NCBI GenBank assembly: GCA_043228905.1
Contig: JBHGNT010000100.1
Location: 26,645-90,644, forward strand
Direction of reading: 5' to 3'
Length of the DNA stretch: 64,000 nt
Source: Azolla caroliniana
Lineage: Eukaryota > Plantae > Polypodiophyta
Part shown: positions 33,201 through 55,439 of the stretch, piece by piece
How positions within the stretch are numbered: the first letter of the stretch is position 1
Layout: every line of letters starts with the position of its first letter
The notes under the pieces: generated by a model
What the model was told of the DNA's origin: nothing
Databases searched by the model: none
What the model saw: the letters and a program-made list of their open reading frames with translations, nothing else
Program-made: the position numbers and the translations under genes

Positions 33201-36200
33201 AGCTCTTCTTAACTCACTCCTCAAATTTAGTAATTTCGTCATGTCTCTCGACCTGAGTTTGAAAATCTTGATTTTTTAATTCTATATCATAGCTAGCGTT
33301 GTTAGCTTCGATTCGCATGTTTGAACACAAAAATCCGATATCACACGAGCCAGGTATGAACATTTTAATTTACTCAAGGGCTTCTCTGAACTCACTCCTC
33401 AAATTTGGTAATCTCATCATGTCTTTCGACCTGAGTTTCAAAATCTTGATTTTTTAATTCCATATCATAGCTAGCGTTGTTAGCTTCGATTCGCATGTTT
33501 GAACACAAAAATCCGATATCACACGAGCCAGGTATGAACATTTTAATTTACTCAAGGGCTTCTCTCAACTCACTCCTCAAATTTGGTAATTTCGTCATAT
33601 CTCGCGACCTGAGTTTCAAAATCTTGATTTTCTAATTCTATATCACAGCTAGTGTTGTTAGCTTCGATTCGGTTGTTTGAACACAAAAATCCGATATCAC
33701 ACGAGCCAGGTATGAACATTTTAATTTACTCAAGGGCTTCTCTCAACTCACTCCTCAAATTTGGTAATCTCATCATGTCTCTCGACTTGAGTTTGAAAAT
33801 CTTGATTTTTTAATTCCATATCATAGCTAGCGTTGTTAGCTTCGATTCGCATGTTTGAACACAAAAATCCGATATCACACGAGCCAGGTATGAACATTTT
33901 AATTTACTCAAGGGCTTCTCTGAACTCACTCCTCAAATTTGGTAATCTCATCATGTCTTTCGACCTGAGTTTCAAAATCTTGATTTTTTAATTCCATATC
34001 ATAGCTAGCGTTGTTAGCTTCGATTCGCATGTTTGAACACAAAAATCCGATATCACACGAGCCAGGTATGAACATTTTAATTTACTCAAGGGCTTCTCTC
34101 AACTCACTCCTCAAATTTGGTAATTTCGTCATATCTCGCGACCTGAGTTTCAAAATCTTGATTTTCTAATTCTATATCACAGCTAGTGTTGTTAGCTTCG
34201 ATTCGCTTGTTTGAACACAAAAATCCGATATCACACGAGCCAGGTATGAACATTTTAATTTACTCAAGGGCTTCTCTCAACTCACTCCTCAAATTTGGTA
34301 ATCTCATCATGTCTCTCGACTTGAGTTTGAAAATCTTGATTTTTTAATTCCATATCATAGCTAGCGTTGTTAGCTTCGATTCGCATGTTTGAACACAAAA
34401 ATCCGATATCACACGAGCCAGGTATGAACATTTTAATTTACTCAAGGGCTTCTCTGAACTCACTCCTCAAATTTGGTAATCTCATCATGTCTTTCGACCT
34501 GAGTTTCAAAATCTTGATTTTTTAACTCCATATCATAGCTAGCATTGTTAGCTTCGATTCGCATGTTTGAACACGAAAATCCGATATCACACGAGCCAGG
34601 TATGAACATTTTAATTTAACTCATAGCTCTTCTTAACTCACTCCTCAAATTTGGTATTTTCGTCATGTCTCTCGACCTGAGTTTCAAAATCTTGATTTTC
34701 TAATTCTATATCACAGCTAGTGTTGTTAGCTTCGATTCGCTTGTTTGAACACAAAAATCCGATATCACACGAGCCAGGTATGAACATTTTAATTTACTCA
34801 AGGGCTTCTCTCAACTCACTCCTCAAATTTGGTAATCTCATCATGTCTCTCGACCTGAGTTTGAAAATCTTGATTTTTTAATTCCATATCATAGCTAGCG
34901 TTGTTAGCTTCGATTCGCATGTTTGAACACAAAAATCCGATATCACACGAGCCAGGTATGAACATTTTAATTTAACTCATAGCTCTTCTTAACTCACTCC
35001 TCAAATTTAGTAATTTCGTCATGTCTCTCGACCTGAGTTTGAAAATCTTGATTTTTTAATTCCATATCATAGCTAGCGTTGTTAGCTTCGATTCGCATGT
35101 TTGAACACAAAATTCGGATATCACACGAGCCAGGTATGAACATTTTAATTTACTCAAGGGCTTCTCTCAACTCACTCCTCAAATTTGGTAATCTCATCAT
35201 GTCTCTCGACCTGAGTTTGAAAATCTTGATTTTTTAATTCCATATCATAGCTAGCGTTGTTAGCTTCGATTCGCATGTTTGAACACAAAAATCCGATATC
35301 ACACGAGCCAGGTATGAACATTTTAATTTAACTCATAGCTCTTCTTAACTCACTCCTCAAATTTAGTAATTTCGTCATGTCTCTCGACCTGAGTTTGAAA
35401 ATCTTGATTTTTTAATTCTATATCATAGCTAGCGTTGTTAGCTTCGATTCGCATGTTTGAACACAAAAATCCGATATCACACGAGCCAGGTATGAACATT
35501 TTAATTTACTCAAGGGCTTCTCTGAACTCACTCCTCAAATTTGGTAATCTCATCATGTCTTTCGACCTGAGTTTCAAAATCTTGATTTTTTAATTCCATA
35601 TCATAGCTAGCGTTGTTAGCTTCGATTCGCATGTTTGAACACAAAAATCCGATATCACACGAGCCAGGTATGAACATTTTAATTTACTCAAGGGCTTCTC
35701 TCAACTCACTCCTCAAATTTGGTAATTTCGTCATATCTCGCGACCTGAGTTTCAAAATCTTGATTTTTTAACTCCATATCATAGCTAGCATTGTTAGCTT
35801 CGATTCGCATGTTTGAACACGAAAATCCGATATCACACGAGCCAGGTATGAACATTTTAATTTAACTCATAGCTCTTCTTAACTCACTCCTCAAATTTGG
35901 TATTTTCGTCATGTCTCTCGACCTGAGTTTCAAAATCTTGATTTTCTAATTCTATATCACAGCTAGTGTTGTTAGCTTCGATTCGCTTGTTTGAACACAA
36001 AAATCCGATATCACACGAGCCAGGTATGAACATTTTAATTAACTCAAGGGCTTCTCTCAACTCACTCCTCAAATTTGGTAATCTCATCATGTCTCTCGAC
36101 CTGAGTTTCAAAATCTTGATTTTTTAATTCCATATCATAGCTAGCGTTGTTAGCTTCGATTCGCATGTTTGAACACAAAAATCCGATATCACACGAGCCA

Positions 36201-36742
36201 GGTATGAACATTTTAATTTACTCAAGGGCTTCTCTGAACTCACTCCTCAAATTTGGTAATCTCATCATGTATTTCGACCTGAGTTTCAAAATCTTGATTT
36301 TTTAATTCCATATCATAGCTAGCGTTGTTAGCTTCGATTCGCATGTTTGAACACAAAAATCCGATATCACACGAGCCAGGTATGAACATTTTAATTTACT
36401 CAAGGGCTTCTCTCAACTCACTCCTCAAATTTGGTAATTTCGTCATGTCTCGCGACCTGAGTTTCAAAATCTTGATTTTTTAACTCCATATCATAGCTAG
36501 CATTGTTAGCTTCGATTCGCATGTTTGAACACAAAAATCCGATATCACACGAGCCAAGTATGAACATTTTAATTTACTCAAGGGCTTCTCTCAACTCACT
36601 CCTCAATTTTGGTAATTTCGTCATGTCATATCATAGCTAGCATTGTTAGCTTCGATTCGCATGTTTGAACACAAAAATCCGATATCACACGAGCCAGGTA
36701 TGAACATTTTAATTTAACTCATAGCTCTTCTTAACTCACTCC
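27257..36742 (+). repeat. 178-bp satellite array, subfamily B (left of retrotransposon)
   Basis: B-type monomers with two recurring variants, TTACTCAAGGGCTTCTCTCAAC and TTAACTCATAGCTCTTCTTAAC. One monomer has a 38-bp deletion at 36627/36628. Confidence 0.97.
36738..36742 (+). other. Left target-site duplication (ACTCC)
   Basis: ACTCC immediately precedes TGTCA at 36743 and is repeated at 42507-42511. Removing the element and one TSD restores an intact monomer. Confidence 0.96.
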
Positions 36743-36813
36743 TGTCATAACTAGACTCGAACCCATAACCTTTTGTTACACGGGTCGAGACTTTACCATT
36801 AGGTTATGAATTG
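36743..36813 (-). promoter_or_regulatory. tRNA-like Pol III type-2 promoter cassette in the 5' LTR (antisense)
   Basis: On the minus strand, A-box-like TAACCTAATGG (36806-36796) and B box GGTTCGAGTCT (36763-36753) lie at canonical tRNA spacing. Confidence 0.6.
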
Positions 36814-36865
36814 TAATTTGAAGGATATTATTTTCATTTAGGTTTTATTGGGAAATTGATGTATA

Positions 36866-36913
36866 TTCCAGATTTCTCTGGAACATTCTAGAAACTTCAG
36901 GAGTATTCCTGAA
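36866..36913 (+). promoter_or_regulatory. Heat-shock-element array (alternating nGAAn/nTTCn) in 5' LTR U3
   Basis: TTCcaGATttCTCtgGAAcaTTCtaGAAacTTCagGAGtaTTCctGAA gives ten 5-bp units in register, seven of them perfect and four consecutive perfect. It ends 5 nt before the TATA position. Confidence 0.75.
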
Positions 36914-36918
36914 GACAC

Positions 36919-36925
36919 TGTAAAA
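36919..36925 (+). promoter_or_regulatory. TATA box position of the 5' LTR (variant TGTAAAA)
   Basis: The equivalent site in the 3' LTR is TATAAAA (42218-42224). It lies 33 nt upstream of the self-primer sequence. Confidence 0.7.
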
Positions 36926-36951
36926 GGAGGCGCAAGGCATTAGTTCGAACC

Positions 36952-36963
36952 AAATCGGTTCAA
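36952..36963 (+). other. Putative self-primer at the transcript 5' end (AAATCGGTTCAA)
   Basis: Exact reverse complement of 37210-37221, located at the expected start site downstream of the TATA box. Confidence 0.8.
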
Positions 36964-37032
36964 CGCCAGTCTTAAGCCTTCTAACTACTGTTGTATATCT
37001 TCCGTCATATAATACATATATCTTTCGCATCA

Positions 37033-37036
<4 letters not shown>

Positions 37037-37074
<38 letters not shown>
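37037..37074 (+). repeat. (TC)19 microsatellite in the 5' LTR
   Basis: 38-nt perfect dinucleotide run; the same length in the 3' LTR (42336-42373). Confidence 0.95.
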
Positions 37075-37078
<4 letters not shown>

Positions 37079-37108
37079 ATTCCTTCTCTCAAAGTTCGAC
37101 ACCTCTCA

Positions 37109-37175
37109 TAGTACTAATCGTTCTCTGTCTTAGTACTATTCCCCAACAATAGTACTAATCCTTCTTTTAGTACTA
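37109..37175. repeat. Four TAGTACTA palindromes in the LTR 3' part
   Basis: Copies start at 37109, 37131, 37150 and 37168. Confidence 0.9.
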
Positions 37176-37209
37176 ATTCCTTCTCTGCCTTAATAGAGTT
37201 CCTGACAGT

Positions 37210-37221
37210 TTGAACCGATTT
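37210..37221 (+). other. Primer-binding site, self-priming type (TTGAACCGATTT)
   Basis: Starts 2 nt after the LTR end, lacks the TGG of tRNA-primed sites and is complementary to LTR 36952-36963. Confidence 0.8.
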
Positions 37222-37295
37222 TGACTACTAGTCTCCCTCTTCCTTCTGTCTCCCTCCTTTCCTACTAGTCTCTTATTTCCCTTTTCCTTCATCCC

Positions 37296-38465
37296 ATGGC
37301 CACCGTTAGCGCTGAAGAGTATCAATCCGTTTTCTCGGAATTTCAATGCTTGAAAGAGAAGTTTCATGCTTTGGAACAAGAAAATCAACGCTTGTTGGGG
37401 GATCTTCAGCAAATTTCCTTAGAAAAGCAGCAAACGCAACAACAGCATGGGGAACTTGCGTTACGCGTGCAACAACTCGAAGCAACCATCGTAGCAATGC
37501 AACAACAAGGGCACGGAGCACAAGGGATTCATAAAGAACCCAAGATTGGCCTTCCCACGAAGTTCGATGGAACGCGATCGCAGTTTAGAGGGTTTCTTAA
37601 CCAGGTACGGTTAGTTATTCAAATGCATCCGTCCCGATATCCCACCGATGCATCACGAGTGGGTTTAGTAGGCACGTTGTTAAATGGCTCAGCATTAGCA
37701 TGGTTCGCTCCGCTACTAGAAAAGGAATCTCCAGTACTAAATAATTTTGAAGAATTCATAAGTGAGTTTAAAGCATGTTTTGGAGATACTGACAGCATAA
37801 GGACTGCAATCAACAAAATCCGGCGATTACGCCAAGGTGACCGTCCAGCCTCCGCATATGCTGCAGATTTCCGCCTACTCGCCGCCGATATCCCCTGGGA
37901 TGATCAAGCATTGATGGAGCAGTTCCGCTATGGTCTACGCAACGATGTCAAGGATTTACTCTTGACTTTCCCTGAAGAGCCAAAATCATTAACAGAAGCA
38001 ATCAGTCGAGCGGTCAGATGTGACAACCGCCTCTTCGAGCGACGTTCGGAACGACAATTTCAGATGCCGAGGGCAAGATCCGAGCCTACCTATGCCTCAG
38101 TGGTAGCGAAACCTTTTCAAAGGGAGTCACATAATGCGCCTCCAGTAAGTACTCCAACTCCAATGGAAATTGACACTACACGTCGTCGTGGGCCGCTATC
38201 GGAGGAGGAAAAGCAACGACGCCGAACAAACCGATTATGCCTTTATTGCGGTGGACCAGGGCATATCGCGATAAACTATCCCCATAGACCAAGAAGGCAG
38301 GTAAACCAAGTCATTGTTAGTTCTGACTATACTAAACCCGAGTCTATTTCAGTAGGAATCTCTGATAATCCTCATAGTCATAATAGTCCTAATAGTACTA
38401 ATAGTCCGAATCTCGCAAACAAATTTGATGTCCTTAGCCAATTAGAAGAAGAGTTAAACGACTAA
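37296..38465 (+). CDS. gag: Gag protein, 389 aa (coiled-coil N-terminus, retrotransposon capsid domain, degenerate zinc knuckle)
   Basis: Motifs PTKFDGTRSQFRGFL, LRQGDRPASAYAADF, FRYGL, PMEID and CLYCGGPGHIAINY are typical of chromovirus/PEG10-like Gag. Confidence 0.95.
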   Translation: MATVSAEEYQSVFSEFQCLKEKFHALEQENQRLLGDLQQISLEKQQTQQQHGELALRVQQLEATIVAMQQQGHGAQGIHKEPKIGLPTKFDGTRSQFRGFLNQVRLVIQMHPSRYPTDASRVGLVGTLLNGSALAWFAPLLEKESPVLNNFEEFISEFKACFGDTDSIRTAINKIRRLRQGDRPASAYAADFRLLAADIPWDDQALMEQFRYGLRNDVKDLLLTFPEEPKSLTEAISRAVRCDNRLFERRSERQFQMPRARSEPTYASVVAKPFQRESHNAPPVSTPTPMEIDTTRRRGPLSEEEKQRRRTNRLCLYCGGPGHIAINYPHRPRRQVNQVIVSSDYTKPESISVGISDNPHSHNSPNSTNSPNLANKFDVLSQLEEELND

Positions 38466-41400
38466 GTCCAGCCAAAATAGGAGCCGTTTGGTTGGACAGC
38501 CCTAGATCTGTGCAGCCCATTAGTGGTTCCATTCCCTCTAAGCAAGTTAGTGATGTGTTCGTAGCCCAAGTAGCAGTTAGTACTAAAAGTACCCCTCCAG
38601 TACATACCTTAGCCCTTCTAGATTCCGGAGCTAATTCTTGCTTCATGGATAGGAATTTTGCCCGAGCTCATCAGATATCTCTCAGAAAGCTCCCATGTCC
38701 AGCCTCAGTAGTAGTCATTGATGGTCGTCCCATTGCTTCTGGTAATATCATAGAAGAGTCGGAACCCGTTAATATTGTCCTAGATAACTTAACATGTGTA
38801 GTATCATTTAATATTATTAGTATTCCAGAACATCCCATAGTTTTAGGATTACCATGGTTCGAGTTACATGACCCAGACATAGATTGGAGGACAAGGGAAA
38901 TCCGGTTGCGACAAACCCAAGGATCTACCCAGAAGGTTGCAACCATTTCGCTACGTCAGTTGCGTGAGGAAGGGCGCAAGGAGGAAATGTTTCTCTTTGC
39001 AATATCAGTACAACCCTCCAGCACCACCAAAGAGGAGTCCACCGTTCAACTTCCCGAGAAGTATCGTCAGTATGCTGATGTGTTCGATAAAGTACAAGCC
39101 AACACACTTCCTCATCATCGGCCGTACGACTGCGCCATCGACTTACAACCGGGAAAAGAGCCGCCATGGGGGCCAATCTACAATTTGTCACCAACCGAGC
39201 TAGAAGTCCTTCGAGCCTATATAGAGGAGAATTTGGAGAACGGTTTCATTCGGCATTCGAAATCTCCAGCCGGCGCACCCATTTTCTTCGTCAAGAAAAA
39301 AGATGGCTCGCTTCGACTCGTTGTAGATTACCGTGGCTTGAATAAGGTCACAGTAAGAAATAGGTATGCTCTTCCCCTTATCTCAAGTCTTTTAGAACGG
39401 ATCAACGGTGCCAGGTTCTTCACGAAGATCGACTTACGAGGAGCCTATAACCTCGTACGGATCCGACCAGGAGATGAATGGAAGACCGCGTTTCGCACCA
39501 GATATGGGCACTTCGAGTATACGGTCATGCCGTTCGGACTCACTAATGCGCCGGCAGTCTTCCAGCACATGGCGAATGATATATTTCGAGATCTCTTGGA
39601 TGATTTTTTGATCATCTATTTGGATGATCTACTGGTTTATTCAAAGACCCAAGAAGAACATGATTCTCATGTACTATTAGTACTAAAACGACTTCGAGAA
39701 CATGGTCTGTATGCAAAGTTAGAGAAATGTAGTTTCGGGTGCAACCAAGTGGAGTTTCTCGGCTATGTCATCTCCTCAGAAGGCATATCTATGGACCCAG
39801 CCAAGGTCAAAACGGTGATAGAATGGCACACTCCGCGTTCGGTGCGGGATGTGCAATGCTTCCTAGGCTTTGCAAATTTCTACCGGAAGTTCATACAAAA
39901 TTACTCAAAAATTGTGTTGCCTCTCACACAGCTCACCAGGAAGGGACAATCATTCATTTGGTCTAAAGAGACGGACATGGCTTTCGAGAGTCTTAAGAAG
40001 GCGTTTACATCAGCTCCAATTTTAGGTCATGTGGATCCGGAAAAACCATTCATTATCGAAGCTGATGCATCGGATTTCGCATTGGGGAGCATTCTGTCAC
40101 AACAGGGTAACGACGAGAAGCTACATCCTGTGGCTTTCCACTCCCGTAAGTTTGACGCCGCCGAAATCAACTACGAAATTCATGATAAAGAGCTATTAGC
40201 AATAGTTGATTCTTTTATGCAATGGAGGCATTTCCTGGAGGGATCTCCTCATCAGGTCACTGTATTCAGTGACCACAAGAACCTTGCCTACTTTCAAGAT
40301 GCTCGTGTACTGAATCGACGTCAAGCTCGGTGGGCCCACTTCCTCACACGCTTCGACTTCAAAATTACATATCGTCCGGGGAAGCACCAAGGGAAGGCAG
40401 ATGCATTATCACGGCATTCGTATCTAACACCACGTCCCGGTGAGCCAGCTTTCGATAACCAGAAGCAAGTAATCTTGGGTCCAGCACGACTGCAAGCAGC
40501 ACAGGTCTTTGACATGCCCGTGGATTCCGACATTACCAATACTATACGTGAGGACTTGAAGACTGACGCTGTCGCCCAAGCTGTACTAGCACAAATTGAC
40601 CCCTCTCGAGCGTCATGTTCACAATCACAATCACCAGGTACGGATTATCGGCAATTCAAATACTGTGATGGATTACTCTTCTTTAAAGAACTTTTGTATG
40701 TTCCTAATGGTTCTTGCCGCCTTCGAGTAGTACAAAACTGCCATGACACATATACAGCAGGACATTTTGGTAGTACTAAAACATTAGATTTAGTACAACG
40801 ATCATTCTGGTGGCCCCGTATGCGACAATTTGTCGAAGATTTTGTTCGGACTTGCGATACATGCTGCAGAGCGAAAATGCCAAGACATCATCCATATGGT
40901 TTATTAGAACCATTACCAATTCCAAGCAAGCCATGGCAATCCATTGCTCTTGACTTCATTACAGATCTTCCAGTCTCTAAGGGATTCAGTGCGATTCTCA
41001 CAGTGGTGGATCGATATACGAAGATGGCTCATTTCTTACCATGTACTAAAGAAATATCTAGTGAAGACACCGCCGAAATTGTCATGCGGGAAGTATGTCG
41101 GCATCATGGACTCCCTGATAATATCATCAGCGATCGTGGACCCCAGTTTGTGTCAAAATTCTGGAAGCACCTTTTTAAAATGCTGAAGGTCACTTGTAAC
41201 CTCTCCTCCGGCTACCACCCACAAACCGACGGTCAAGCCGAACGAACAAATCAAACACTGGAGCAGTATCTGCGGTGCTTTCTCAACTATCATCAGAATG
41301 ACTGGGCAGATATTCTTCAGTTCGCCGAATTTGCCTATAATAACGCTATCCACGCATCGACTAAAGTCACGCCATTCTACGCTTATACGGGATATCATCC

Positions 41401-42049
41401 CCGGTGGTGTGTCCTTGAAACCCCAGAAGTGTCCACAAATCCTTGCGCGGAGGATCGTTTGGAGCGGTTACGCAAGATACAAGCGGATTTATCTACTCAA
41501 CTCCAGCAAGCTCAACAATCACACAAGGACTACGCAGATCGTCATCGACTTCCATCCAGTTTTAACATTGGAGATCGGGTGTGGCTGCTACGACGACACA
41601 TCAAGACTACTCGCCCATGTGAGAAGTTGGATTATCGGCGATTAGGTCCTTTCCGTATTATCGGGAAGATTAATGATGTCGCTTTTCGTCTCGAGCTACC
41701 TCCGCAACTTCGGATACACCCGGTGTTTCATAGTTCTCTCCTCGAACCCTATCACGAGAGCACTATCCCAGGACGTACTATACAACCTCCACCTCCTATC
41801 GAGCTCGAAGATGGACCTGAGTATGAGGTCGCTGCCATCCTCGATTCCAAGATTGTTCGCAACAAGCTCTACTATCTAGTCGATTGGCTAGGATATAGTC
41901 CCAACGAGCGTACTTGGGAACCGATCGAGAATGTGACCAATGCTCGTGCTCTTCTAGAAGACTTCCATCGACGATATCCCGAGAAACCGGGTCCTCAATC
42001 CAAAACGACGAGTGAAACTCGTCGTTTTAAAGGGGGGATAGTGTCATAA
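38438..42049 (+). CDS. pol: Pol polyprotein (aspartic protease, RT, RNase H, integrase with GPY/F, chromodomain), expressed as Gag-Pol by -1 frameshift
   Basis: The frame is open from 38438 (after TAG at 38435); the track start at 38492 is a TTG, not an ATG. Motifs: LLDSGA (~38621), YLDD (~39617), ADASDF/ELLAI/DHKNL, HDTYTAGH...CDTC, LDFI/SDRGPQF/GQAER, GPFRI and YEV...WLGY...TWEP. The TAA stop lies inside the 3' LTR. Confidence 0.96.
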   Translation, partial: PIRRRVKRLSPAKIGAVWLDSPRSVQPISGSIPSKQVSDVFVAQVAVSTKSTPPVHTLALLDSGANSCFMDRNFARAHQISLRKLPCPASVVVIDGRPIASGNIIEESEPVNIVLDNLTCVVSFNIISIPEHPIVLGLPWFELHDPDIDWRTREIRLRQTQGSTQKVATISLRQLREEGRKEEMFLFAISVQPSSTTKEESTVQLPEKYRQYADVFDKVQANTLPHHRPYDCAIDLQPGKEPPWGPIYNLSPTELEVLRAYIEENLENGFIRHSKSPAGAPIFFVKKKDGSLRLVVDYRGLNKVTVRNRYALPLISSLLERINGARFFTKIDLRGAYNLVRIRPGDEWKTAFRTRYGHFEYTVMPFGLTNAPAVFQHMANDIFRDLLDDFLIIYLDDLLVYSKTQEEHDSHVLLVLKRLREHGLYAKLEKCSFGCNQVEFLGYVISSEGISMDPAKVKTVIEWHTPRSVRDVQCFLGFANFYRKFIQNYSKIVLPLTQLTRKGQSFIWSKETDMAFESLKKAFTSAPILGHVDPEKPFIIEADASDFALGSILSQQGNDEKLHPVAFHSRKFDAAEINYEIHDKELLAIVDSFMQWRHFLEGSPHQVTVFSDHKNLAYFQDARVLNRRQARWAHFLTRFDFKITYRPGKHQGKADALSRHSYLTPRPGEPAFDNQKQVILGPARLQAAQVFDMPVDSDITNTIREDLKTDAVAQAVLAQIDPSRASCSQSQSPGTDYRQFKYCDGLLFFKELLYVPNGSCRLRVVQNCHDTYTAGHFGSTKTLDLVQRSFWWPRMRQFVEDFVRTCDTCCRAKMPRHHPYGLLEPLPIPSKPWQSIALDFITDLPVSKGFSAILTVVDRYTKMAHFLPCTKEISSEDTAEIVMREVCRHHGLPDNIISDRGPQFVSKFWKHLFKMLKVTCNLSSGYHPQTDGQAERTNQTLEQYLRCFLNYHQNDWADILQFAEFAYNNAIHASTKVTPFYAYTGYHPRWCVLETPEVSTNPCAEDRLERLRKIQADLSTQLQQAQQSHKDYADRHRLPSSFNIGDRVWLLRRHIKTTRPCEKLDYRRLGPFRIIGKINDVAFRLELPPQLRIHPVFHSSLLEPYHESTIPGRTIQPPPPIELEDGPEYEVAAILDSKIVRNKLYYLVDWLGYSPNERTWEPIENVTNARALLEDFHRRYPEKPGPQSKTTSETRRFKGGIVS
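38453..38504 (+). other. -1 programmed ribosomal frameshift signal
   Basis: Slippery heptamer G_TTA_AAC in the gag frame (38453-38459), a 6-nt spacer, then an 11-bp stem GTCCAGCCAAA/TTTGGTTGGAC (38466-38476 with 38487-38497, one G-U pair). Loop TAGG can pair with CCTA at 38501-38504. Confidence 0.8.
41822..41980 (+). other. Integrase C-terminal chromodomain (group I type)
   Basis: YEVAAILDSKIVRNKLYYLVDWLGYSPNERTWEPIENVTNARALLEDFHRRYP retains the three aromatic cage residues (Y, W, Y). Confidence 0.92.
42002..42028. other. Perfect 12-bp inverted repeat abutting the PPT
   Basis: AAAACGACGAGT-GAA-ACTCGTCGTTTT. Confidence 0.9.
42029..42041 (+). other. Polypurine tract
   Basis: AAAGGGGGGATAG directly precedes the TGTCA of the 3' LTR. 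Confidence 0.92.
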
Positions 42050-42112
42050 CTGGACTCGAACCCATAACCTTTTGTTACACGGGTCGAGACTTTACCATTA
42101 GGTTATGAATTG
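42042..42112 (-). promoter_or_regulatory. tRNA-like Pol III type-2 promoter cassette in the 3' LTR (antisense)
   Basis: A-box-like TAACCTAATGG (42105-42095) and a perfect B box GGTTCGAGTCC (42062-42052). D-stem pairs 3 of 4 and T-stem pairs 4 of 5. Confidence 0.65.
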
Positions 42113-42331
42113 TAATTTGAAGGATATTATTTTCATTTAGGTTTTATTGGGAAATTGATGTATATTCCAGATTTCTCTGGAACATTCTAGAAACTTCAGG
42201 AGTATTCCTGAAGACACTATAAAAGGAGGCGCAAGGCATCAGTTCGAACCAAATCGGTTCAACGCCAGTCTTAAGCCTTCTAACTACTGTTGTATATCTT
42301 CCGTCATATAATACATATATCTTTCGCATCA

Positions 42332-42377
<46 letters not shown>

Positions 42378-42506
42378 ATTCCTTCTCTCAAAGTTCAACA
42401 CCTCTCATAGTACTAATCCTTCTCTGTCTTAGTACTATTCCCCAACAATAGTACTAATCCTTCTTTTAGTACTAATTCCTTCTCTGCCTTAATAGAGTTC
42501 CTGACA
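42042..42506 (+). repeat. 3' LTR (465 bp)
   Basis: TGTCA...TGACA direct repeat of the 5' LTR, with HSE array at 42165-42212 and TATAAAA at 42218-42224. Confidence 0.97.
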
Positions 42507-42511
42507 ACTCC
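42507..42511 (+). other. Right target-site duplication (ACTCC)
   Basis: Matches 36738-36742. Confidence 0.96.
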
Positions 42512-42939
42512 TCAAATTTGGTATTTTCGTCATGTCTCTCGACCTGAGTTTCAAAATCTTGATTTTCTAATTCTATATCACAGCTAGTGTTGTTAGCTTC
42601 GATTCGCTTGTTTAAACACAAAAATCCGATATCACACGAGCCAGGTATGAACATTTTAATTTACTCAAGGGCTTCTCTCAACTCACTCCTCAAATTTGGT
42701 AATCTCATCATGTCTTTCGACCTGAGTTTCAAAATCTTGATTTTTTAACTCCATATCATAGCTAGCATTGTTAGCTTCGATTCGCATGTTTGAAAACAAA
42801 AATCCGATATCACACGAGCCAGGTATGAACATTTTAATTTAACTCATAGCTCTTCTCAACTCACTCCTCAAAATTGCTAATTTCGTCCTGTCTCTCGACC
42901 TGAGTTTGAAAATCTTGATTTTTTAATTCCATATCATAT

Positions 42940-45900
42940 CTAGCGTTGTTAGCTTCGATTCGCATGTTTGAACACAAAAATCCGATATCACACGAGCCAG
43001 GTATGAACATTTTAATTTACTCAAGGGCTTCTCTCAACTCACTCCTCAAATTTGGTAATCTCATCATGTCTCTCGACCTGAGTTTGAAAATCTTGATTTT
43101 TTAATTCCATATCATAGCTAGCGTTGTTAGCTTCGATTTGCATATTTGAACACAAAAATCCGATATCACACGAGCCAGGTATGAACATTTTAATTTAACT
43201 CATAGCTCTTCTTAACTCACTCCTCAAATTTGGTAATTTCGTCATGTCTCTCGACCTGAGTTTCAAAATCTTGATTTTTTAATTCCATATCATAGCTAGC
43301 GTAGTTAGCTTCGATTCGCATGTTGGAACACAAAAATCCGATATCACACGAGCCAGGTATGAACATTTTAATTTACTCAAGGGTTCCTCTCAACTCACTC
43401 CTCAAATTTGGTAATTTCGTCATGTCTCTCGACCTGAGTTTCAAAATCTTGACTTTTTAATTCCATATCATAGCTAGCGTTGTTAGCTTCGATTCGCATG
43501 TTTGAACATAGAAATCCGATATCACACGAGCCAGGTATGAACATTTTAATTTACCTCCTAGCTCTTCTCAACTCACTCCTCAAAATTGCTAATTTCGTCC
43601 TGTCTCTCGACCTGAGTTTGAAAATTTTGATTTTTTAATTCCATATCATATCTAGCGTTGTTAGCTTCGATTCGCATGTTTGAACACAAAAATCCGATAT
43701 CACAAAGCCAGGTATGAACATTTTAATTTACTCAAGGGTTCCTCTCAACTCACTCCTCAAATTTGGTAATTTCGTCATGTCTCTCGACCTGAGTTTCAAA
43801 ATCTTGATTTTTTAATTCCATATCATAGCTAGCGTAGTTAGCTTCGATTCGCATGTTGGAACACAAAAATCCGATATCACACGAGCCAGGTATGAACATT
43901 TTAATTTACTCAAGGGTTCCTCTCAACTCACTCCTCAAATTTGGTAATTTCGTCATGTCTCTCGACCTGAGTTTCAAAATCTTGATTTTTTAATTCCATA
44001 TCATAGCTAGCGTTGTTAGCTTCGATTCGCATGTTTGAACATAGAAATCCGATATCACACGAGCCAGGTATGAACATTTTAATTTACCTCCTAGCTCTTC
44101 TCAACTCACTCCTCAAAATTGCTAATTTCGTCCTGTCTCTCGACCTGCGTTGTTAGCTTCGATTCGCATATTTGAACACAAAAATCCGATATCACACGAG
44201 CCAGGTATGAACATTTTAATTTAACTCATAGCTCTTCTTAACTCACTCCTCAAATTTGGTAATTTCGTCATGTCTCTCGACCTGAGTTTCAAAATCTTGA
44301 TTTTTTAATTCCATATCATAGCTAGCGTAGTTAGCTTCGATTCGCATGTTGGAACACAAAAATCCGATATCACACGAGCCAGGTATGAACATTTTAATTT
44401 ACTCAAGGGTTCCTCTCAACTCACTCCTCAAATTTGGTAATTTCGTCATGTCTCTCGACCTGAGTTTCAAAATCTTGATTTTTTAATTCCATATCATAGC
44501 TAGCGTTGTTAGCTTCGATTCGCATGTTTGAACATAGAAATCCGATATCACACGAGCCAGGTATGAACATTTTAATTTACCTCCTAGCTCTTCTCAACTC
44601 ACTCCTCAAAATTGCTAATTTCGTCCTGTCTCTCGACCTGAGTTTCAAAATCTTGATTTTCTAATTCCATATCATAGCTAGTGTTGTTAGCTTCGATTCG
44701 CTTGTTTGAACACAAAAATCCGATATCACACGAGCCAGGTATGAACATTTTAATTAAACTCATAGCTCTTCTTAACTCACTCCTCAAATTTGGTAATTTC
44801 GTCATGTCTCTCGACCTGAGTTGCAAAATCTTGATTTTTTAATTCCATATCATAGCTAGCGTTGTTAGCTTCGATTCGCATGTTTGAACACAAAATTCGG
44901 ATATCACACGAGCCAGGTATGAACATTTTAATTTACTCAAGGGCTTCTCTCAACTCACTCCTCAAATTTGGTAATCTCATCATGTCTCTCGACCTGAGTT
45001 TGAAAATCTTGATTTTTTAATTCCATATCATAGCTAGCGTTGTTAGCTTCGATTCGCATGTTTGAACACAAAAATCCGATATCACACGAGCCAGGTATGA
45101 ACATTTTAATTTAACTCATAGCTCTTCTTAACTCACTCCTCAAATTTGGTAATTTCGTCATGTCTCTCGACCTGAGTTTGAAAATCTTGATTTTTTAATT
45201 CCATATCATAGCTAGCGTTGTTAGCTTCGATTCGCATGTTTGAACACAAAAATCCGATATCACACGAGCCAGGTATGAACATTTTAATTTACTCAAGGGC
45301 TTCTCTCAACTCACTCCTCAAATTTGGTAATCTCATCATGTCTCTCGACCTGAGTTTGAAAATCTTGATTTTTTAATTCCATATCATAGCTAGCGTTGTT
45401 AGCTTCGATTTGCATATTTGAACACAAAAATCCGATATCACACGAGCCAGGTATGAACATTTTAATTTAACTCATAGCTCTTCTTAACTCACTCCTCAAA
45501 TTTGGTAATTTCGTCATGTCTCTCGACCTGAGTTTCAAAATCTTGATTTTTTAATTCCATATCATAGCTAGCGTAGTTAGCTTCGATTCGCATGTTGGAA
45601 CACAAAAATCCGATATCACACGAGCCAGGTATGAACATTTTAATTTACTCAAGGGTTCCTCTCAACTCACTCCTCAAATTTGGTAATTTCGTCATGTCTC
45701 TCGACCTGAGTTTCAAAATCTTGACTTTTTAATTCCATATCATAGCTAGCGTTGTTAGCTTCGATTCGCATGTTTGAACATAGAAATCCGATATCACACG
45801 AGCCAGGTATGAACATTTTAATTTACCTCCTAGCTCTTCTCAACTCACTCCTCAAAATTGCTAATTTCGTCCTGTCTCTCGACCTGAGTTTGAAAATTTT

Positions 45901-47520
45901 GATTTTTTAATTCCATATCATATCTAGCGTTGTTAGCTTCGATTCGCATGTTTGAACACAAAAATCCGATATCACAAAGCCAGGTATGAACATTTTAATT
46001 TACTCAAGGGTTCCTCTCAACTCACTCCTCAAATTTGGTAATTTCGTCATGTCTCTCGACCTGAGTTTCAAAATCTTGATTTTTTAATTCCATATCATAG
46101 CTAGCGTAGTTAGCTTCGATTCGCATGTTGGAACACAAAAATCCGATATCACACGAGCCAGGTATGAACATTTTAATTTACTCAAGGGTTCCTCTCAACT
46201 CACTCCTCAAATTTGGTAATTTCGTCATGTCTCTCGACCTGAGTTTCAAAATCTTGATTTTTTAATTCCATATCATAGCTAGCGTTGTTAGCTTCGATTC
46301 GCATGTTTGAACATAGAAATCCGATATCACACGAGCCAGGTATGAACATTTTAATTTACCTCCTAGCTCTTCTCAACTCACTCCTCAAAATTGCTAATTT
46401 CGTCCTGTCTCTCGACCTGCGTTGTTAGCTTCGATTCGCATATTTGAACACAAAAATCCGATATCACACGAGCCAGGTATGAACATTTTAATTTAACTCA
46501 TAGCTCTTCTTAACTCACTCCTCAAATTTGGTAATTTCGTCATGTCTCTCGACCTGAGTTTCAAAATCTTGATTTTTTAATTCCATATCATAGCTAGCGT
46601 AGTTAGCTTCGATTCGCATGTTGGAACACAAAAATCCGATATCACACGAGCCAGGTATGAACATTTTAATTTACTCAAGGGTTCCTCTCAACTCACTCCT
46701 CAAATTTGGTAATTTCGTCATGTCTCTCGACCTGAGTTTCAAAATCTTGATTTTTTAATTCCATATCATAGCTAGCGTTGTTAGCTTCGATTCGCATGTT
46801 TGAACATAGAAATCCGATATCACACGAGCCAGGTATGAACATTTTAATTTACCTCCTAGCTCTTCTCAACTCACTCCTCAAAATTGCTAATTTCGTCCTG
46901 TCTCTCGACCTGAGTTTCAAAATCTTGATTTTCTAATTCCATATCATAGCTAGTGTTGTTAGCTTCGATTCGCTTGTTTGAACACAAAAATCCGATATCA
47001 CACGAGCCAGGTATGAACATTTTAATTAAACTCATAGCTCTTCTTAACTCACTCCTCAAATTTGGTAATTTCGTCATGTCTCTCGACCTGAGTTGCAAAA
47101 TCTTGATTTTTTAATTCCATATCATAGCTAGCGTTGTTAGCTTCGATTCGCATGTTTGAACACAAAATTCGGATATCACACGAGCCAGGTATGAACATTT
47201 TAATTTACTCAAGGGCTTCTCTCAACTCACTCCTCAAATTTGGTAATCTCATCATGTCTCTCGACCTGAGTTTGAAAATCTTGATTTTTTAATTCCATAT
47301 CATAGCTAGCGTTGTTAGCTTCGATTCGCATGTTTGAACACAAAAATCCGATATCACACGAGCCAGGTATGAACATTTTAATTTAACTCATAGCTCTTCT
47401 TAACTCACTCCTCAAATTTGGTAATTTCGTCATGTCTCTCGACCTGAGTTTGAAAATCTTGATTTTTTAATTCCATATCATAGCTAGCGTTGTTAGCTTC
47501 GATTCGCATGTTTGAACACA
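42940..47520 (+). repeat. Tandem duplication, period 2272 bp (13 monomers minus 42 bp)
   Basis: ORFs 44599/46871 are offset by 2272. A 41-bp deletion occurs at 44147 and 46419, and a 1-bp deletion (CACAAAGCC) is in both copies. Ends approximate. Confidence 0.88.
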
Positions 47521-50500
47521 AAATTCGGATATCACACGAGCCAGGTATGAACATTTTAATTTAACTCATAGCTCTTCTTAACTCACTCCTCAAATTTGGT
47601 AATTTCGTCATGTCTCTCGACCTGAGTTTGAAAATCTTGATTTTTTAATTCCATATCATAGCTAGCGTTGTTAGCTTCGATTCGCATGTTTGAACACAAA
47701 ATTCGGATATCACACGAGCCAGGTATGAACATTTTAATTTACTCAAGGGCTTCTCTCAACTCACTCCTCAAATTTGGTAATCTCATCATGTCTCTCGACC
47801 TGAGTTTGAAAATCTTGATTTTTTAATTCCATATCATAGCTAGCGTTGTTAGCTTCGATTCGCATGTTTGAACACAAAATTCGGATATCACACGAGCCAG
47901 GTATGAACATTTTAATTTACTCAAGGGCTTCTCTGAACTCACTCCTCAAATTTGGTAATCTCATCATGTCTCTCGACCTGAGTTTGAAAATCTTGATTTT
48001 TTAATTCCATATCATAGCTAGCGTTGTTAGCTTCGATTCGCATGTTTGAACACAAAAATCCGATATCACACGAGCCAGGTATGAACATTTTAATTTAACT
48101 CATAGCTCTTCTTAACTCACTCCTCAAATTTCGTAATTTCGTCATGTGTCTCGACCTGAGTTTGAAAATCTTGATTTTTTAATTCTATATCATAGGTAGC
48201 GTTGTTAGCTTCGATTCACATGTTTGAACACAAAATTCGGATATCACACGAGCCAGGTATGAACATTTTAATTTACTCAAGGGCTTCTCTCATCTCACTC
48301 CTCAAATTTGGTAATCTCATCATATCTCTCGACCTGAGTTTGAAAATCTTGATTTTTTAATTCCATATCATAGCTAGCGTTGTTAGCTTCGATTCGCATG
48401 TTTGAACACAAAAATAAGATATCACACGAGCCAGGTATGAACATTTTAATTTACTCAAGGGCTTCTCTCAACTCACTCCTCAAATTTGGTAATCTCATCA
48501 TGTCTTTCGACCTGAGTTTCAAAATCTTGATTTTTTAATTCCATATCATAGCTAGCGTTGTTAGCTTCGATTCGCATGTTTGAACACAAAAATCCGATAT
48601 CACACGAGCCAGGTATGAACATTTTAATTTACTCAAGGGCTTCTCTCAACTCACTCCTCAAATTTGGTAATTTCGTCCTGTCTCTCGACGTGAGTTTGAA
48701 AATCTTGATTTTTTAATCCATATCATATCTAGCGTTGTTAGCTTCGATTCGCATGTTTGAACACAAAAATCCGATATCACACGAGCCAGGTATGAACATT
48801 TTAATTTACTCAAGGGCTTCTCTCAACTCACTCCTCAAATTTGGTAATTTCGTCATGTCTCGCGACCTGAGTTTCAAAATCTTGATTTTTTAATTCCATA
48901 TCATAGCTAGCGTTGTTAGCTTCGATTCGCATGTTTGAACACAAAAATCCGATATCACACGAGCCAGGTATGAACATTTTAATTTAACTCATCGCTCTTC
49001 TTAACTCACTCCTCAAATTTGGTAATTTCGTCATGGCTCTCGACCTGAGTTTCAAAATCTTGATTTTTTAATTCCATATCATAGCTAGCGTAGTTAGCTT
49101 CGATTCGCATGTTTGAACACAAAAATCCGATATCACACGAGCCAGGTATGAACATTTTAATTTACTCAAGGGCTTTTCTCAACTCACTCCTGAAATTTGG
49201 TAATCTCATCATGTCTCTCGACCTGAGTTTTAAAATCTTGATTTTTTAACTCCATATCATAGCTAGCATTGTTAGCTCGGATTCACATGTTTGAACACAA
49301 AAATCCGATATCACACGAGCCAAGTATGAACATTTTAATTTACTCAAAGGCTTCTCTCAACTCACTCCTCAAATTTGGTAATTTCGTCATGTCTTTTGAC
49401 CTGAGTTTGAAAATCTTGATTTTTTAATTCCATATCATAGCTAGCGTTGTTAGCTTCGATATCACACGAGCCAGGTATGAACATTTTAATTTACTCAAGG
49501 GCTTCTCTCAACTCACTCCTCAAATTTGGTAATCTCATCATGTCTCTCGACCTGAATTTGAAAATCTTGATTTTTTAATTCCATATCATAGCTAGCGTAG
49601 TTAGCTTCGATTCGCATGTTTGAACACAAAAATCCGATATCACACGAGCCAGGTATGAACATTTTAATTTACTCAAGGGCTTCTCTCAACTCACTCCTCA
49701 AATTTGGTAATTTCGTCATGGCTCTCGACCTGAGTTTCAAAATCTTGATTTTTTAATTCCATATCATAGCTAGCGTTGTTAGTTTCGATTCGCATATTTG
49801 AACACAAAAATCCGATATCACACGAGCCAGGTATGAACATTTTAATTTAACTCATAGCTCTTCTTAACTCACTCCTCAAATTTGGTAATTTCGTCATGGC
49901 TCTCGACCTGAGTTTCAAAATCTTGATTTTTTAACTCCATATCATAGCTAGCGTTGTTAGCTTCGATTCGCATGTTTGAACAGAAAAATCCGATATCACA
50001 CGAGCCAGGTATGAACATTTTAATTTACTCAAGGGCTTCTCTCAACTCACTCCTCAAATTTGGTAATCTCATCATGTCTCTCGACCTGAGTTTGAAAATC
50101 TTGATTTTTTAATTCCATATCATAGCTAGCGTTGTTAGCTTCGATTCGCATGTTTGAACACAAAAATCCGATATCACACGAGCCAGGTATGAACATTTTA
50201 ATTTACTCAAGGGCTTCTCTCAACTCACTCCTCAAATTTGGTAATCTCATCATGTCTCTCGACCTGAGTTTGAAAATCTTGATTTTTTAATTCCATATCA
50301 TAGCTAGCGTTGTTAGCTTCGATTCGCATGTTTGAACACAAAAATCCGATATCACACGAGCCAGGTATGAACATTTTAATTTACTCAAGGGCTTCTCTCA
50401 ACTCACTCCTCAAATTTGGTAATTTCGTCATGTCTCGCGACCTGAGTTTCAAAATCTTGATTTTTTAATTCCATATCATAGCTAGCGTAGTTAGCTTCGA

Positions 50501-52419
50501 TTCGCATGTTTGAACACAAAAATCCGATATCACACGAGCCAGGTATGAACATTTTAATTTACTCAAGGGCTTCTCTCAACTCACTCCTCAAATTTGGTAA
50601 TTTCGTCATGGCTCTCGACCTGAGTTTCAAAATCTTGATTTTTTAATTCCATATCATAGCTAGCGTTGTTAGTTTCGATTCGCATATTTGAACACAAAAA
50701 TCCGATATCACACGAGCCAGGTATGAACATTTTAATTTAACACATAGCTCTTCTTAACTCACTCCTCAAATTTGGTAATTTCGTCATGGCTCTCGACCTG
50801 AGTTTCAAAATCTTGATTTTTTAACTCCATATCATAGCTAGCGTTGTTAGCTTCGATTCGCATGTTTGAACACAAAAATCCGATATCACACGAGCCAGGT
50901 ATGAACATTTTAATTTACTCAAGGGCTTCTCTCAACTCACTCCTCAAATTTGGTAATCTCATCATGTCTCTCGACCTGAGTTTGAAAATCTTGATTTTTT
51001 AATTCCATATCATAGCTAGCGTTGTTAGCTTCGATTCGCATGTTTGAACACAAAAATCCGATATCACACGAGCCAGGTATGAACATTTTAATTTACTCAA
51101 GGGCTTCTCTCAACTCACTCCTCAAATTTGGTAATCTCATCATGTCTCTCGACCTGAGTTTGAAAATCTTGATTTTTTAATTCCATATCATAGCTAGCGT
51201 TGTTAGCTTCGATTCGCATGTTTGAACACAAAAATCCGATATCACACGAGCCAGGTATGAACATTTTAATTTACTCAAGGGCTTCTCTCAACTCACTCCT
51301 CAAATTTGGTAATTTCGTCATGTCTCGCGACCTGAGTTTCAAAATCTTGATTTTTTAATTCCATATCATAGCTAGCGTAGTTAGCTTCGATTCGCATGTT
51401 TGAACACAGAAATCCGATATCACACGAGCCAGGTATGAACATTTTAATTTAACTCATCGCTCTTCTTAACTCACTCCTCAAATTTGGTAATTTCGTCATG
51501 GCTCTCGACCTGAGTTTTAAAATCTTGATTTTTTAATTCCATATCATAGCTAGCGTTGTTAGCTTCGATTCGCATGTTTGAACACAAAATTCCGATATCA
51601 CACGAGCCAGGTATGAACATTTTAATTTACTCAAGGGCTTCTCTCAACTCACTCCTCAAATTTGGTAATCTCATCATGTCTCTCGACCTGAGTTTGAAAA
51701 TCTTGATTTTTTAATTCCATATCATAGCTAGCGTTGTTAGTTTCGATTCGCATATTTGAACACAAAAATCCGATATCACACGAGCCAGGTATGAACATTT
51801 TAATTTAACTCATAGCTCTTCTTAACTCACTCCTCAAATTTGGTAATTTCGTCATGGCTCTCGACCTGAGTTTCAAAATCTTGATTTTTTAACTCCATAT
51901 CATAGCTAGCGTTGTTAGCTTCGATTCGCATGTTTGAACACAAAATTCTGATATCACACGAGCCAGGTATGAACATTTTAATTTACTCAAGGGCTTCTCT
52001 CAACTCACTCCTCAAATTTGGTAATCTCATCATGTCTCTCGACCTGAGTTTGAAAATCTTGATTTTTTAATTCCATATCATAGCTAGCATAGTTAGCTTC
52101 GATTCGCATGTTTGAACACAAAAATCCGATATCACACGAGCCAGGTATGAACATTTTAATTTACTCAAGGGCTTCTCTCAAACTCACTCCTCAAATTTGG
52201 TAATTTCGTCATGTCTCTCGACCTGAGTTTCAAAATCTTAATTTTTTAATTCCATATCATAGCTAGCGTTGTTAGCTTCGATTCGCATGTTTGAACACAA
52301 AAATCCGATATCACACGAGCCAGGTATGAACATTTTAATTTACTCAAGGGCTTCTCTCAACTCACTCCTCAAATTTGGTAATTTCGTCATGTCTCGCGAC
52401 CTGAGTTTCAAAATCTTGA

Positions 52420-55110: not shown

Positions 55111-55439
55111 ATAGCTAGCGTAGTTAGCTTCGATTCGCATGTTTGAACACAAAAATCCGATATCAAACGAGCCAGGTATGAACATTTTAATTTACTCAAG
55201 GGCTTCTCTCAACTCACTCCTCAAATTTGGTAATTTCGTCATGTCTCGCGACCTGAGTTTCAAAATCTTGATTTTTTAATTCCATATCATAGCTAGCGTA
55301 GTTAGCTTCGAATCGCATGTTTGAACACAAAAATCCGATATCACACGAGCCAGGTATGAACATTTTAATTTACTCAAGGGCTTCTCTCAAACTCACTCCT
55401 CAAATTTGGTAATTTCGTCATGGCTCTCGACCTGAGTTT

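What the first reader, a model, noticed from the sequence alone, without database searches (positions are those of the whole stretch)
42042..42112. The LTR begins with an antisense tRNA-like Pol III cassette whose 3' end coincides with the LTR terminus
Seen in sequence: the reverse complement of the first 71 nt of the LTR is CAATTCA-TAACCTAATGGTAAAGT-CTCGACCCGTGTAACAAA-AGGTT-ATGGGTTCGAGTCCAGT-TATGACA. It has an A-box-like TAACCTAATGG and a perfect B box GGTTCGAGTCC. With tRNA numbering (no position 17), U8, A14, G18G19, A21 and G53-T54-T55-C56-A58-C61 all fall in place, and position 72 is the terminal LTR base. The D and T stems mostly pair, but the acceptor and anticodon stems do not, so it resembles a tRNA-derived SINE head rather than a tRNA. 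It is in both LTRs (also 36743-36813), so it replicates as part of U3. Established: A/B boxes recruit TFIIIC; tRNA genes and B boxes act as heterochromatin barriers in fission yeast; Cassandra TRIMs carry 5S-derived Pol III sequence in their LTRs. Inference: an autonomous chromovirus that lands in heterochromatin may carry its own TFIIIC-bound insulator or Pol III unit upstream of its Pol II promoter. I do not recall this described for this group.
Basis: partly seen in the sequence, partly recalled or inferred. Interest (0 to 1): 0.85.

Follow-up and report, generated by a model that had tools for sequence, protein, structure and literature searches.

The report
Retrotransposon clade keeps backward tRNA promoter
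A group of plant jumping genes carries, at the outer edge of its terminal repeats and facing outward, a worn tRNA gene whose polymerase III promoter boxes stay conserved while the rest decays, which likely lets the element recruit the tRNA-gene machinery and may keep its own promoter open inside silent chromatin.

Summary
The element (36743-42506) is an autonomous, self-priming, Tcn1-type chromovirus in a 178-bp satellite array. Alone, its 71-nt cassette is not a tRNA (no Rfam or ARAGORN hit; 8.3 bits with a custom tRNA model). But among relatives fetched by protein only, 49 of 68 scorable LTR heads carry the same antisense cassette. Anchoring on the B box alone, 27 of 40 non-redundant heads also show the A box and AGGT(44-47) at tRNA spacing (shuffles: mean 0.03). 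In 30 diverged families (51% mean identity) the box bases are 83-100% conserved, while acceptor and anticodon stems pair at chance level. AGGT(44-47) matches a known TFIIIC contact upstream of the B box. So this is likely a selected DNA-level Pol III (TFIIIC) promoter. Insulator function, binding and transcription are untested. It differs from Helenus and Cassandra (non-autonomous, sense, tRNA-primed). This scan noted tRNA-type boxes in fungal LTRs on other DNA before (unchecked AI notes).

The parts
42042..42112 (-). tRNA-derived A/V/B cassette at the outer edge of U3, 3' LTR (template copy)
42095..42105 (-). A box (T8, A14, T16, G18, G19)
   Evidence: 27/30, 28/30, 29/30, 29/30, 29/30 in non-redundant families
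42067..42070 (-). AGGT, tRNA positions 44-47; predicted TFIIIC contact upstream of the B box
   Evidence: 30/30, 27/30, 29/30, 30/30; not used for selection; PMC11724288 passages
42052..42062 (-). B box, positions 52-62
   Evidence: G53-C56 30/30, A58 29/30, C61 25/30
36743..36813 (-). same cassette in the 5' LTR; position 62 is T instead of C
36743..37207 (+). 5' LTR, 465 bp, TG...CA; its TATA carries an A>G change (LTR position 178)
42042..42506 (+). 3' LTR, 465 bp, 5 differences from the 5' LTR
42218..42223 (+). Pol II TATA box, 113 nt from T8, facing away from the cassette
   Evidence: TATA 31-33 nt before the self-priming segment in 12 of 14 relatives where that segment was found
36952..36963 (+). 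predicted 5' end of the genomic RNA, 12 nt complementary to the PBS (self-primer; 42251-42262 in the 3' LTR)
37210..37221 (+). self-priming PBS (Tf1 type), not a tRNA 3'-end complement
   Evidence: the pair co-varies across families
37296..38465 (+). gag, 389 aa
38438..42049 (+). pol (PR-RT-RH-IN-SH3-chromodomain), open 1203 aa stop to stop, in the -1 frame to gag; group I chromodomain with Y/W/Y cage
42029..42038 (+). polypurine tract
   Evidence: sequence; same position in 70 of 81 rows
42002..42005 (-). first T4 run downstream of the 3' LTR cassette (possible Pol III stop, outside the LTR, past the PPT)
36673..36677 (-). first T5 run downstream of the 5' LTR cassette, inside the flanking satellite
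   Evidence: sequence
36738..36742 (+). 5-bp target site duplication, left (right copy 42507-42511)
1..64000 (.). 178-bp satellite array that hosts the insertion (about 325 copies)

Best explanation
The first 71 nt of U3 are a tRNA-gene relic, facing outward, whose promoter bases are conserved across many families of this chromovirus clade; it likely binds TFIIIC and TFIIIB as a type-2 Pol III promoter and would thereby hold an open, tRNA-gene-like chromatin patch between the flanking heterochromatin and the element's Pol II promoter. Shown: tRNA geometry, antisense orientation, clade-wide conservation of A box, AGGT(44-47) and B box, loss of cloverleaf pairing, autonomy, self-priming, satellite insertion site. 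Inferred: TFIIIC binding (about 0.8), from the match to known contact positions. Inferred more weakly: barrier or opening role as the selected benefit. The confidence given is for the whole chain.
For: Relatives were fetched by the integrase-chromodomain peptide only. 49 of 68 scorable LTR heads were kept as positive on the antisense strand, against 1 of 68 scoring >=10 on the sense strand. With a B-box-only anchor, 27 of 40 non-redundant heads also have A box and AGGT; shuffles mean 0.03, max 1; sense 0 of 40; next LTR window 0 of 33. Information content is 1.43 (A box), 1.83 (44-47) and 1.73 (B box) bits against 0.16-0.42 for flanks, acceptor strands and anticodon arm. In 8 close relatives box positions differ at 7 of 136 sites, other cassette sites at 118 of 368, the rest of U3 at 112 of 669. 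A-B spacing is 43-45 in 49 of 49. An HMM built from the cassettes finds, in 488 kb, only LTR-head sites (61) and two genuine tRNA genes. Two relatives hit Rfam tRNA below the gathering score (27.8 and 21.4 bits). No consensus fold. Yeast TFIIIC makes a base-specific contact upstream of the B box, mutations at +44 to +47 alter binding or transcription, and the A box is needed to place TFIIIB (PMC11724288, passages). tDNA barriers need TFIIIC and Pol III and work in either orientation (PMC2040200, abstract). T4 runs inside the cassette: 2 of 30 against 6.6 shuffled, but A4 is also low (4 against 8.5).
Against: No binding, chromatin or RNA data. Several chromodomain-bearing relatives lack the cassette (the 6-row clade L085-L091, L078/L080, L061/L062, L068), so it is dispensable in the wider group. 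No terminator is kept inside the LTR (first T4 inside in 10 of 30). Distance from T8 to the TATA box varies from 113 to 208 nt in 11 relatives. Rigid A-B spacing is more than TFIIIC is usually said to need (recalled, not from a call). D-stem pair 11:24 pairs in 24 of 30 with 7 double changes, a hint of RNA-level constraint or of ancestry. The link between intact pol and intact cassette is only a trend (28 of 31 against 8 of 12, Fisher p=0.08). The TFIIIC evidence is from yeast, not from plants.
Confidence: 0.5

Rival explanations
1. The cassette is a Pol III promoter whose product matters: a short antisense RNA that reads out of the LTR, across the PPT and the pol end (3' LTR) or into flanking DNA (5' LTR), and tunes silencing, reverse transcription or the neighbouring chromatin.
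For: The A box is kept, which suggests TFIIIB loading and transcription. In the window the first stop lies 47 nt past position 62, so the RNA would cover the PPT. Foamy viruses make Pol III RNAs from U3 (PMC3993851, passages).
Against: No shared fold, no conserved terminator (10 of 30 inside the LTR), and sequence between and around the boxes drifts freely.
Confidence: 0.17
2. The boxes act as a landing pad: TFIIIB/TFIIIC on the LTR attracts Pol III-targeting integrases (the element's own or another clade's), as for Ty3 and Tj1 at tRNA genes.
For: Tj1, a self-priming Tf1 relative, integrates within 12 bp upstream of tRNA genes (PMC4600332, abstract).
Against: Comparing LTRs with sister copies gave 7 early breakpoints among 59 LTRs, at no shared distance from T8 (low power). 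The window copy sits in satellite with no exact B box elsewhere in 64 kb.
Confidence: 0.1
3. The conserved bases work on the genomic RNA, where they are complementary to the D, variable and T loops of a host tRNA, like the U3 half of the Ty3 bipartite primer-binding site.
For: In Ty3 the T arm and D arm of tRNAi-Met anneal in U3 (PMC5371799, passages). The cassette lies in U3, is antisense to tRNA and keeps exact tRNA spacing.
Against: These elements self-prime (14 of 17 LTR-gag loci plus the window). Changes that G-U pairing would tolerate are not seen at G53, T54, T55, T47 (each 30 of 30), and the stretch is not conserved contiguously (A49 16 of 30).
Confidence: 0.08
4. A neutral relic of a tRNA or SINE head captured once and decaying.
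For: Kojima notes that 'not a few LTRs' in Repbase hold tRNA-like parts. Stems have decayed.
Against: Box sites differ at 5% against 32% for their neighbours and stay 83-100% conserved at 51% mean identity, including a CpG in the B box.
Confidence: 0.07
5. The conserved words are now Pol II factor sites (ACC-type or GGTTAA-type motifs, recalled) that happen to derive from a tRNA.
For: On the plus strand the three boxes read as ACC-containing words in U3, upstream of the TATA box.
Against: The conserved set includes T8, A14, T16, A58 and C61 at exact tRNA spacing, which such factors would not need.
Confidence: 0.08

Closest known systems
Helenus (TRIMp3), Kojima 2024, PMC10886601 (text parts 1-4 of 6, searched passages, supplement passages)
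   Same: tRNA-derived segment in both LTRs, conservation centred on boxes A and B, no functional cloverleaf; one family known from Selaginella.
   Different: Helenus is short and non-autonomous with a tRNA-complementary PBS. In the four LTR entries I saw in the supplement the tRNA part reads in the sense direction and is proposed to drive the element's own RNA. Here the element is autonomous, self-priming, has a Pol II TATA, and the cassette is antisense at the outer edge of U3, so it cannot make the genomic RNA.
Cassandra and Ajax TRIMs (as described in PMC10886601)
   Same: Pol III promoter relic in the LTR.
   Different: 5S-derived (type 1), non-autonomous, and used to make the element RNA (shown for Cassandra per that paper).
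Tcn1 clade chromoviruses of mosses and lycophytes (PMC6317226, PMC2864245, PMC3350952; passages)
   Same: Group I chromodomain with aromatic cage, self-priming PBS, LTR of about 440-470 bp, 5-bp TSD.
   Different: No tRNA-like or Pol III element in the LTR is mentioned in the passages read.
Foamy virus LTR Pol III miRNA cassettes (PMC3993851, passages)
   Same: Autonomous retroelement with A/B-box Pol III units in U3.
   Different: They yield hairpin miRNAs with terminators; here there is a tRNA scaffold, no conserved hairpin and no conserved terminator.
tDNA heterochromatin barrier at S. pombe cen1 (PMC2040200, abstract)
   Same: What the cassette is proposed to work like: TFIIIC plus Pol III, orientation-independent.
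   Different: A fixed host gene, shown by experiment; here a mobile relic, untested.
Ty3 bipartite PBS; Ty3/Tj1 targeting of tRNA genes (PMC5371799 passages; PMC4600332 abstract)
   Same: tRNA-complementary U3 sequence (Ty3); tRNA gene next to and facing away from an LTR (a possible origin of the capture).
   Different: Here the tRNA relic is inside U3 and priming does not use tRNA.

Membership tests
Helenus (TRIMp3) | tRNA-derived sequence with boxes A and B in the LTRs | tested here: met
Helenus (TRIMp3) | short, non-autonomous, no protein coding | tested here: not met
   5.76 kb with open gag and pol
Helenus (TRIMp3) | tRNA-complementary PBS | tested here: not met
   PBS is complementary to the LTR's own R start
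Helenus (TRIMp3) | Pol III promoter oriented to transcribe the element | tested here: not met
   antisense in all 49 kept heads; sense in the Helenus entries seen
tRNA gene | cloverleaf with acceptor and anticodon stems; Rfam score of 29 bits or more | tested here: not met
   stems pair in 40.5% and 36.7% of cells
Type-2 Pol III promoter | A box and B box at tRNA spacing | tested here: met
   spacing 43-45 in 49 of 49
Type-2 Pol III promoter | downstream oligo-T terminator | tested here: inconclusive
   inside the LTR in 10 of 30; outside it in the window
Type-2 Pol III promoter | TFIIIC/TFIIIB/Pol III occupancy and transcription | not testable with these tools
   needs ChIP or in vitro assay
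tRNA-derived SINE | body and tail after the head, free insertion sites with own TSD | tested here: not met
   no body or tail: the LTR ends 10-64 nt after the B box; all 61 non-tRNA HMM hits are LTR-head sites
Tcn1 chromovirus | Ty3/gypsy domain order with group I chromodomain (Y/W/Y cage) | tested here: met
   cage residues read from the sequence against PMC3350952 passages
Tcn1 chromovirus | self-priming PBS | tested here: met
   12-nt complement in the window; 14 of 17 LTR-gag loci
Tcn1 chromovirus | phylogenetic placement with named Tcn1 references | not tested
   no named Tcn1 reference was fetched; close relatives carry no organism names
tDNA-type chromatin barrier | blocks heterochromatin spread in a TFIIIC- and Pol III-dependent way | not testable with these tools
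   needs a reporter assay

The most novel reading that the evidence does not exclude
A radiation of autonomous, heterochromatin-targeting plant retrotransposons has domesticated a tRNA gene as a portable Pol III chromatin barrier at the outer edge of each LTR, letting them stay expressible in satellite and TE-rich heterochromatin and seeding host genomes with many TFIIIC sites, one at every LTR and solo LTR.
Probability: 0.4. Interest if true: 0.85.

Novelty: new variant of a known kind. Interest (0 to 1): 0.72.

Why it matters
How elements that integrate into heterochromatin stay active is an open question, and this gives a short, mutable, testable cis element with natural plus and minus sister clades. 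Kojima (PMC10886601) argued that autonomous LTR elements must rely on Pol II and analysed only short non-autonomous elements. A selected, outward-facing Pol III cassette in autonomous elements is a different use of the same part. If bound, each LTR and solo LTR adds a TFIIIC site to centromeric and TE-rich chromatin. I found no description of this in searches (open-access library only; Repbase reports and subscription journals were not searched).

Tried and rejected
No whole genome is held for the window, so copy number, solo LTRs and nested insertions could not be counted genome-wide. Rfam and ARAGORN on the window: no tRNA. ARAGORN on 60 loci found only three genuine tRNA genes in two loci and none at an LTR head. 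Expression: no RNA holder listed; the one RNA-guess run laid on the cassette gave no contigs, which says nothing either way. Within-family variation from contigs was too coarse: 3 variant rows in the narrow lay and a cut table in the wide one; none of the rows shown fell in the B box or AGGT, and several fell in variable A-box positions (10-12, 16). Conserved RNA fold: none; whole cloverleaf 49.6% paired against 47.8% shuffled, 44 of 500 shuffles as high. The hairpin that folds the window cassette (z -2.8) uses a register that is not the tRNA's and is not shared. Upstream CAA initiator: 11 of 30, not informative. Distant chromoviruses from viral contigs (13 loci, 31-40% identity) and two genome-contig loci show no A/V/B geometry (best 14 of 20 against 20 of 20 for the window); some of those stretches may not cover the whole LTR head. 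The tree is the quick one, the careful search did not finish; it cannot separate one gain with losses from several gains. Host species and tRNA isotype were not determined.

Full report
The element. The window is a 178-bp satellite array of about 325 copies interrupted by one LTR retrotransposon at 36743-42506. Its LTRs are 465 bp, differ at 5 sites and are flanked by a 5-bp duplication. gag (37296-38465) overlaps an open pol frame (38438-42049) with protease, RT, RNase H, integrase, SH3 and chromodomain. The chromodomain keeps the Y/W/Y cage (criteria from PMC3350952 passages). The PBS (37210-37221) is complementary to 12 nt that start 33 nt after the TATA box; the same arrangement, with different sequences on both sides, occurs in 14 of 17 related loci where an LTR is followed by gag. 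Self-priming plus a caged chromodomain fits the Tcn1 clade of mosses and lycophytes (PMC6317226 passages). I did not place it on a tree with named references, and the host is inferred to be a non-seed plant.

The observation. The 5' LTR copy has T at position 62. On its own the copy is not a tRNA: ARAGORN and Rfam find nothing, and a covariance model built from 32 real tRNAs (mostly bacterial, three from the plant-associated loci) gives 8.3 bits, E 0.53. A B-box-like word alone is not rare: three loose matches lie on the sense strand of the same LTR. The combined A/B score, however, is 22.6 against at most 11.5 in 100 shuffles.

Relatives. An LTR start after a polypurine tract was found in 70 of 81 rows including the window; I added 2 by hand and dropped 4 as too short, leaving 68. 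Fifty passed score >=10, shuffle p<=0.05 and B box within 70 nt on the antisense strand; I removed one (L088) by hand because it lacks the GG and GTTC cores, leaving 49. One of 68 reached 10 on the sense strand. To avoid circularity I took 40 non-redundant heads chosen without any box score and anchored on the B box only: 29 had AGGT at 44-47, 27 had the A box at spacing 43-45, 27 had both; 100 shuffled sets gave a mean of 0.03 and a maximum of 1; the sense strand gave 0 of 40 and the next 150 nt of LTR 0 of 33. The most over-shared 5-mers in those heads are the B box and AGGT words. The tRNA model, run unfiltered on 52 of the 78 loci, gave 21 hits at E<=0.05: 3 real tRNA genes (in the training set), 17 LTR-head cassettes and 1 site inside pol. 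The best, L087, keeps an acceptor stem and scores 32.7 bits; Rfam tRNA gives it 27.8 bits and L037 21.4, both under the gathering score of 29 (7 loci given). In reverse, an HMM from the cassettes finds 63 sites in 488 kb: 61 LTR-head sites and 2 of the 3 genuine tRNA genes. tRNA ancestry is therefore well supported.

What is conserved. In 30 families under 85% identity (mean 51%), T8, A14, T16, G18, G19 are kept in 27-29 of 30; A44, G45, G46, T47 in 30, 27, 29, 30; G53-C56 in 30 of 30; A58 in 29; C61 in 25. The A and B figures are inflated by selection; the 44-47 figures are not. Information content is 1.4-1.8 bits in the boxes and 0.16-0.42 in flanks, acceptor strands and anticodon arm. Among 8 close relatives, box sites differ from the window at 7 of 136 positions, other cassette sites at 118 of 368 and downstream U3 at 112 of 669. 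A-B spacing is 44, 43 or 45 in 33, 15 and 1 of 49, while the B box sits 10-64 nt from the LTR end, so the terminal coincidence in the title is specific to this family. Acceptor and anticodon stems pair at chance level (40.5%, 36.7%), D and T stems more (59.7%, 67.3%), the whole cloverleaf does not beat shuffles (44 of 500) and RNAalifold predicts no pairs. One D-stem pair (11:24) does co-vary.

Distribution. On a quick tree of 73 peptides a supported clade of 45 rows has 36 positive, 7 negative and 2 unscored; a second of 13 rows has 7, 4 and 2. Several negatives in the first clade are long-branch copies. Copies with an open pol end are positive in 28 of 31, broken ones in 8 of 12 (p=0.08). 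A six-row clade and three smaller lineages lack the cassette, as do 13 distant chromoviruses from viral contigs.

Mechanism. The pattern (boxes kept, stems lost, T47 kept) fits recognition of DNA. In yeast TFIIIC a winged-helix residue reads a base upstream of the B box, changes at +44 to +47 alter binding or transcription, and the A box is needed to place TFIIIB (PMC11724288 passages). I therefore infer a type-2 Pol III promoter, probability about 0.8. It faces outward, away from a Pol II TATA box 113 nt from T8 here and 113-208 nt in 11 relatives, so it cannot make the genomic RNA as proposed for Helenus. There is no conserved terminator (first T4 inside the LTR in 10 of 30); in the window a transcript would end at 42002-42005, past the PPT, or inside the satellite at 36673-36677. 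Because product features are not conserved and the element sits in satellite and carries a heterochromatin-type chromodomain (PMC7466625 passages on RLG1), I favour a chromatin role like the orientation-independent tDNA barrier of fission yeast (PMC2040200 abstract), at about 0.5 overall. Rivals are an antisense RNA, a landing pad for Pol III-targeting integrases (no shared breakpoint among 59 LTRs, low power), Ty3-like tRNA annealing in U3 (PMC5371799 passages; weakened by self-priming and by the absence of wobble-tolerated changes), Pol II factor sites, and a neutral relic. A possible origin is capture of a tRNA gene lying upstream of and facing away from an insertion, the geometry that Tj1 targeting produces (PMC4600332 abstract), or of an antisense SINE head; this is speculation.

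Comparison and novelty. Helenus shares the part but fails three defining features here (autonomy, primer, orientation). Kojima states that many Repbase LTRs hold tRNA-like pieces but studied only elements under 1 kb, so tRNA relics in LTRs are known in passing. I found no account of a selected antisense cassette in autonomous chromoviruses in searches. Two unchecked notes of this scan describe tRNA-type boxes in fungal LTRs; a look-up with the pol protein found no overlap with them. Verdict: real, selected and clade-wide; function untested; new variant of a known kind; interest 0.72.

Noticed in passing
window 36919-36924: The 5' LTR TATA box carries an A>G change absent from the 3' LTR, so this copy's own Pol II promoter may be weakened; the gag zinc knuckle also ends in Y instead of the last C.
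   Followed up: no
window 38438-38465: gag and pol overlap by 28 nt in the -1 frame, with GTTAAAC just before the gag stop, a candidate frameshift site shared by L016 and L017.
   Followed up: partly
window 42002-42028: A perfect 12-bp inverted repeat with a 3-nt loop lies just upstream of the PPT, overlapping the first possible Pol III stop; related words recur in many relatives.
   Followed up: no
window 42242-42250, 42256-42266, 42392-42402 (+): Three B-box-like words on the sense strand of the LTR, one overlapping the self-priming segment; no A box or AGGT geometry goes with them.
   Followed up: partly
L017, L023-L026, L037, L042, L049, L052, L068, L078-L080, L082: The self-primer and PBS co-vary across families (several distinct 10-12-nt pairs) at a fixed distance from the TATA box, direct comparative support for Tf1-type priming in this plant clade.
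   Followed up: yes
L025 and L027: pol-LTR-gag-pol-LTR arrangements in which the two LTRs belong to different subfamilies; tandem or recombinant elements, or assembly chimeras.
   Followed up: no
L036 552-906; L037 128-201: Genuine tRNA genes (Asn, Thr; Asp) lie within a few hundred bases of element fragments in 2 of 60 loci scanned; too few to say whether insertion is biased to tRNA genes.
   Followed up: partly
L087 5023-5094 (-): The most intact cassette, with a full 7-bp acceptor stem; a younger capture or stronger constraint in that lineage.
   Followed up: partly
L040 LTR head: The A-box half of the cassette appears duplicated in tandem.
   Followed up: no
window 1-64000: The 178-bp satellite shows periodic 179-bp monomers and occasional 137-140-bp truncated units, one next to the insertion, suggesting higher-order repeats.
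   Followed up: no
L093, L094, L114: Chromovirus contigs and a eukaryote-like tRNA-Gln sit in bacterial genome bins, probably contamination.
   Followed up: no
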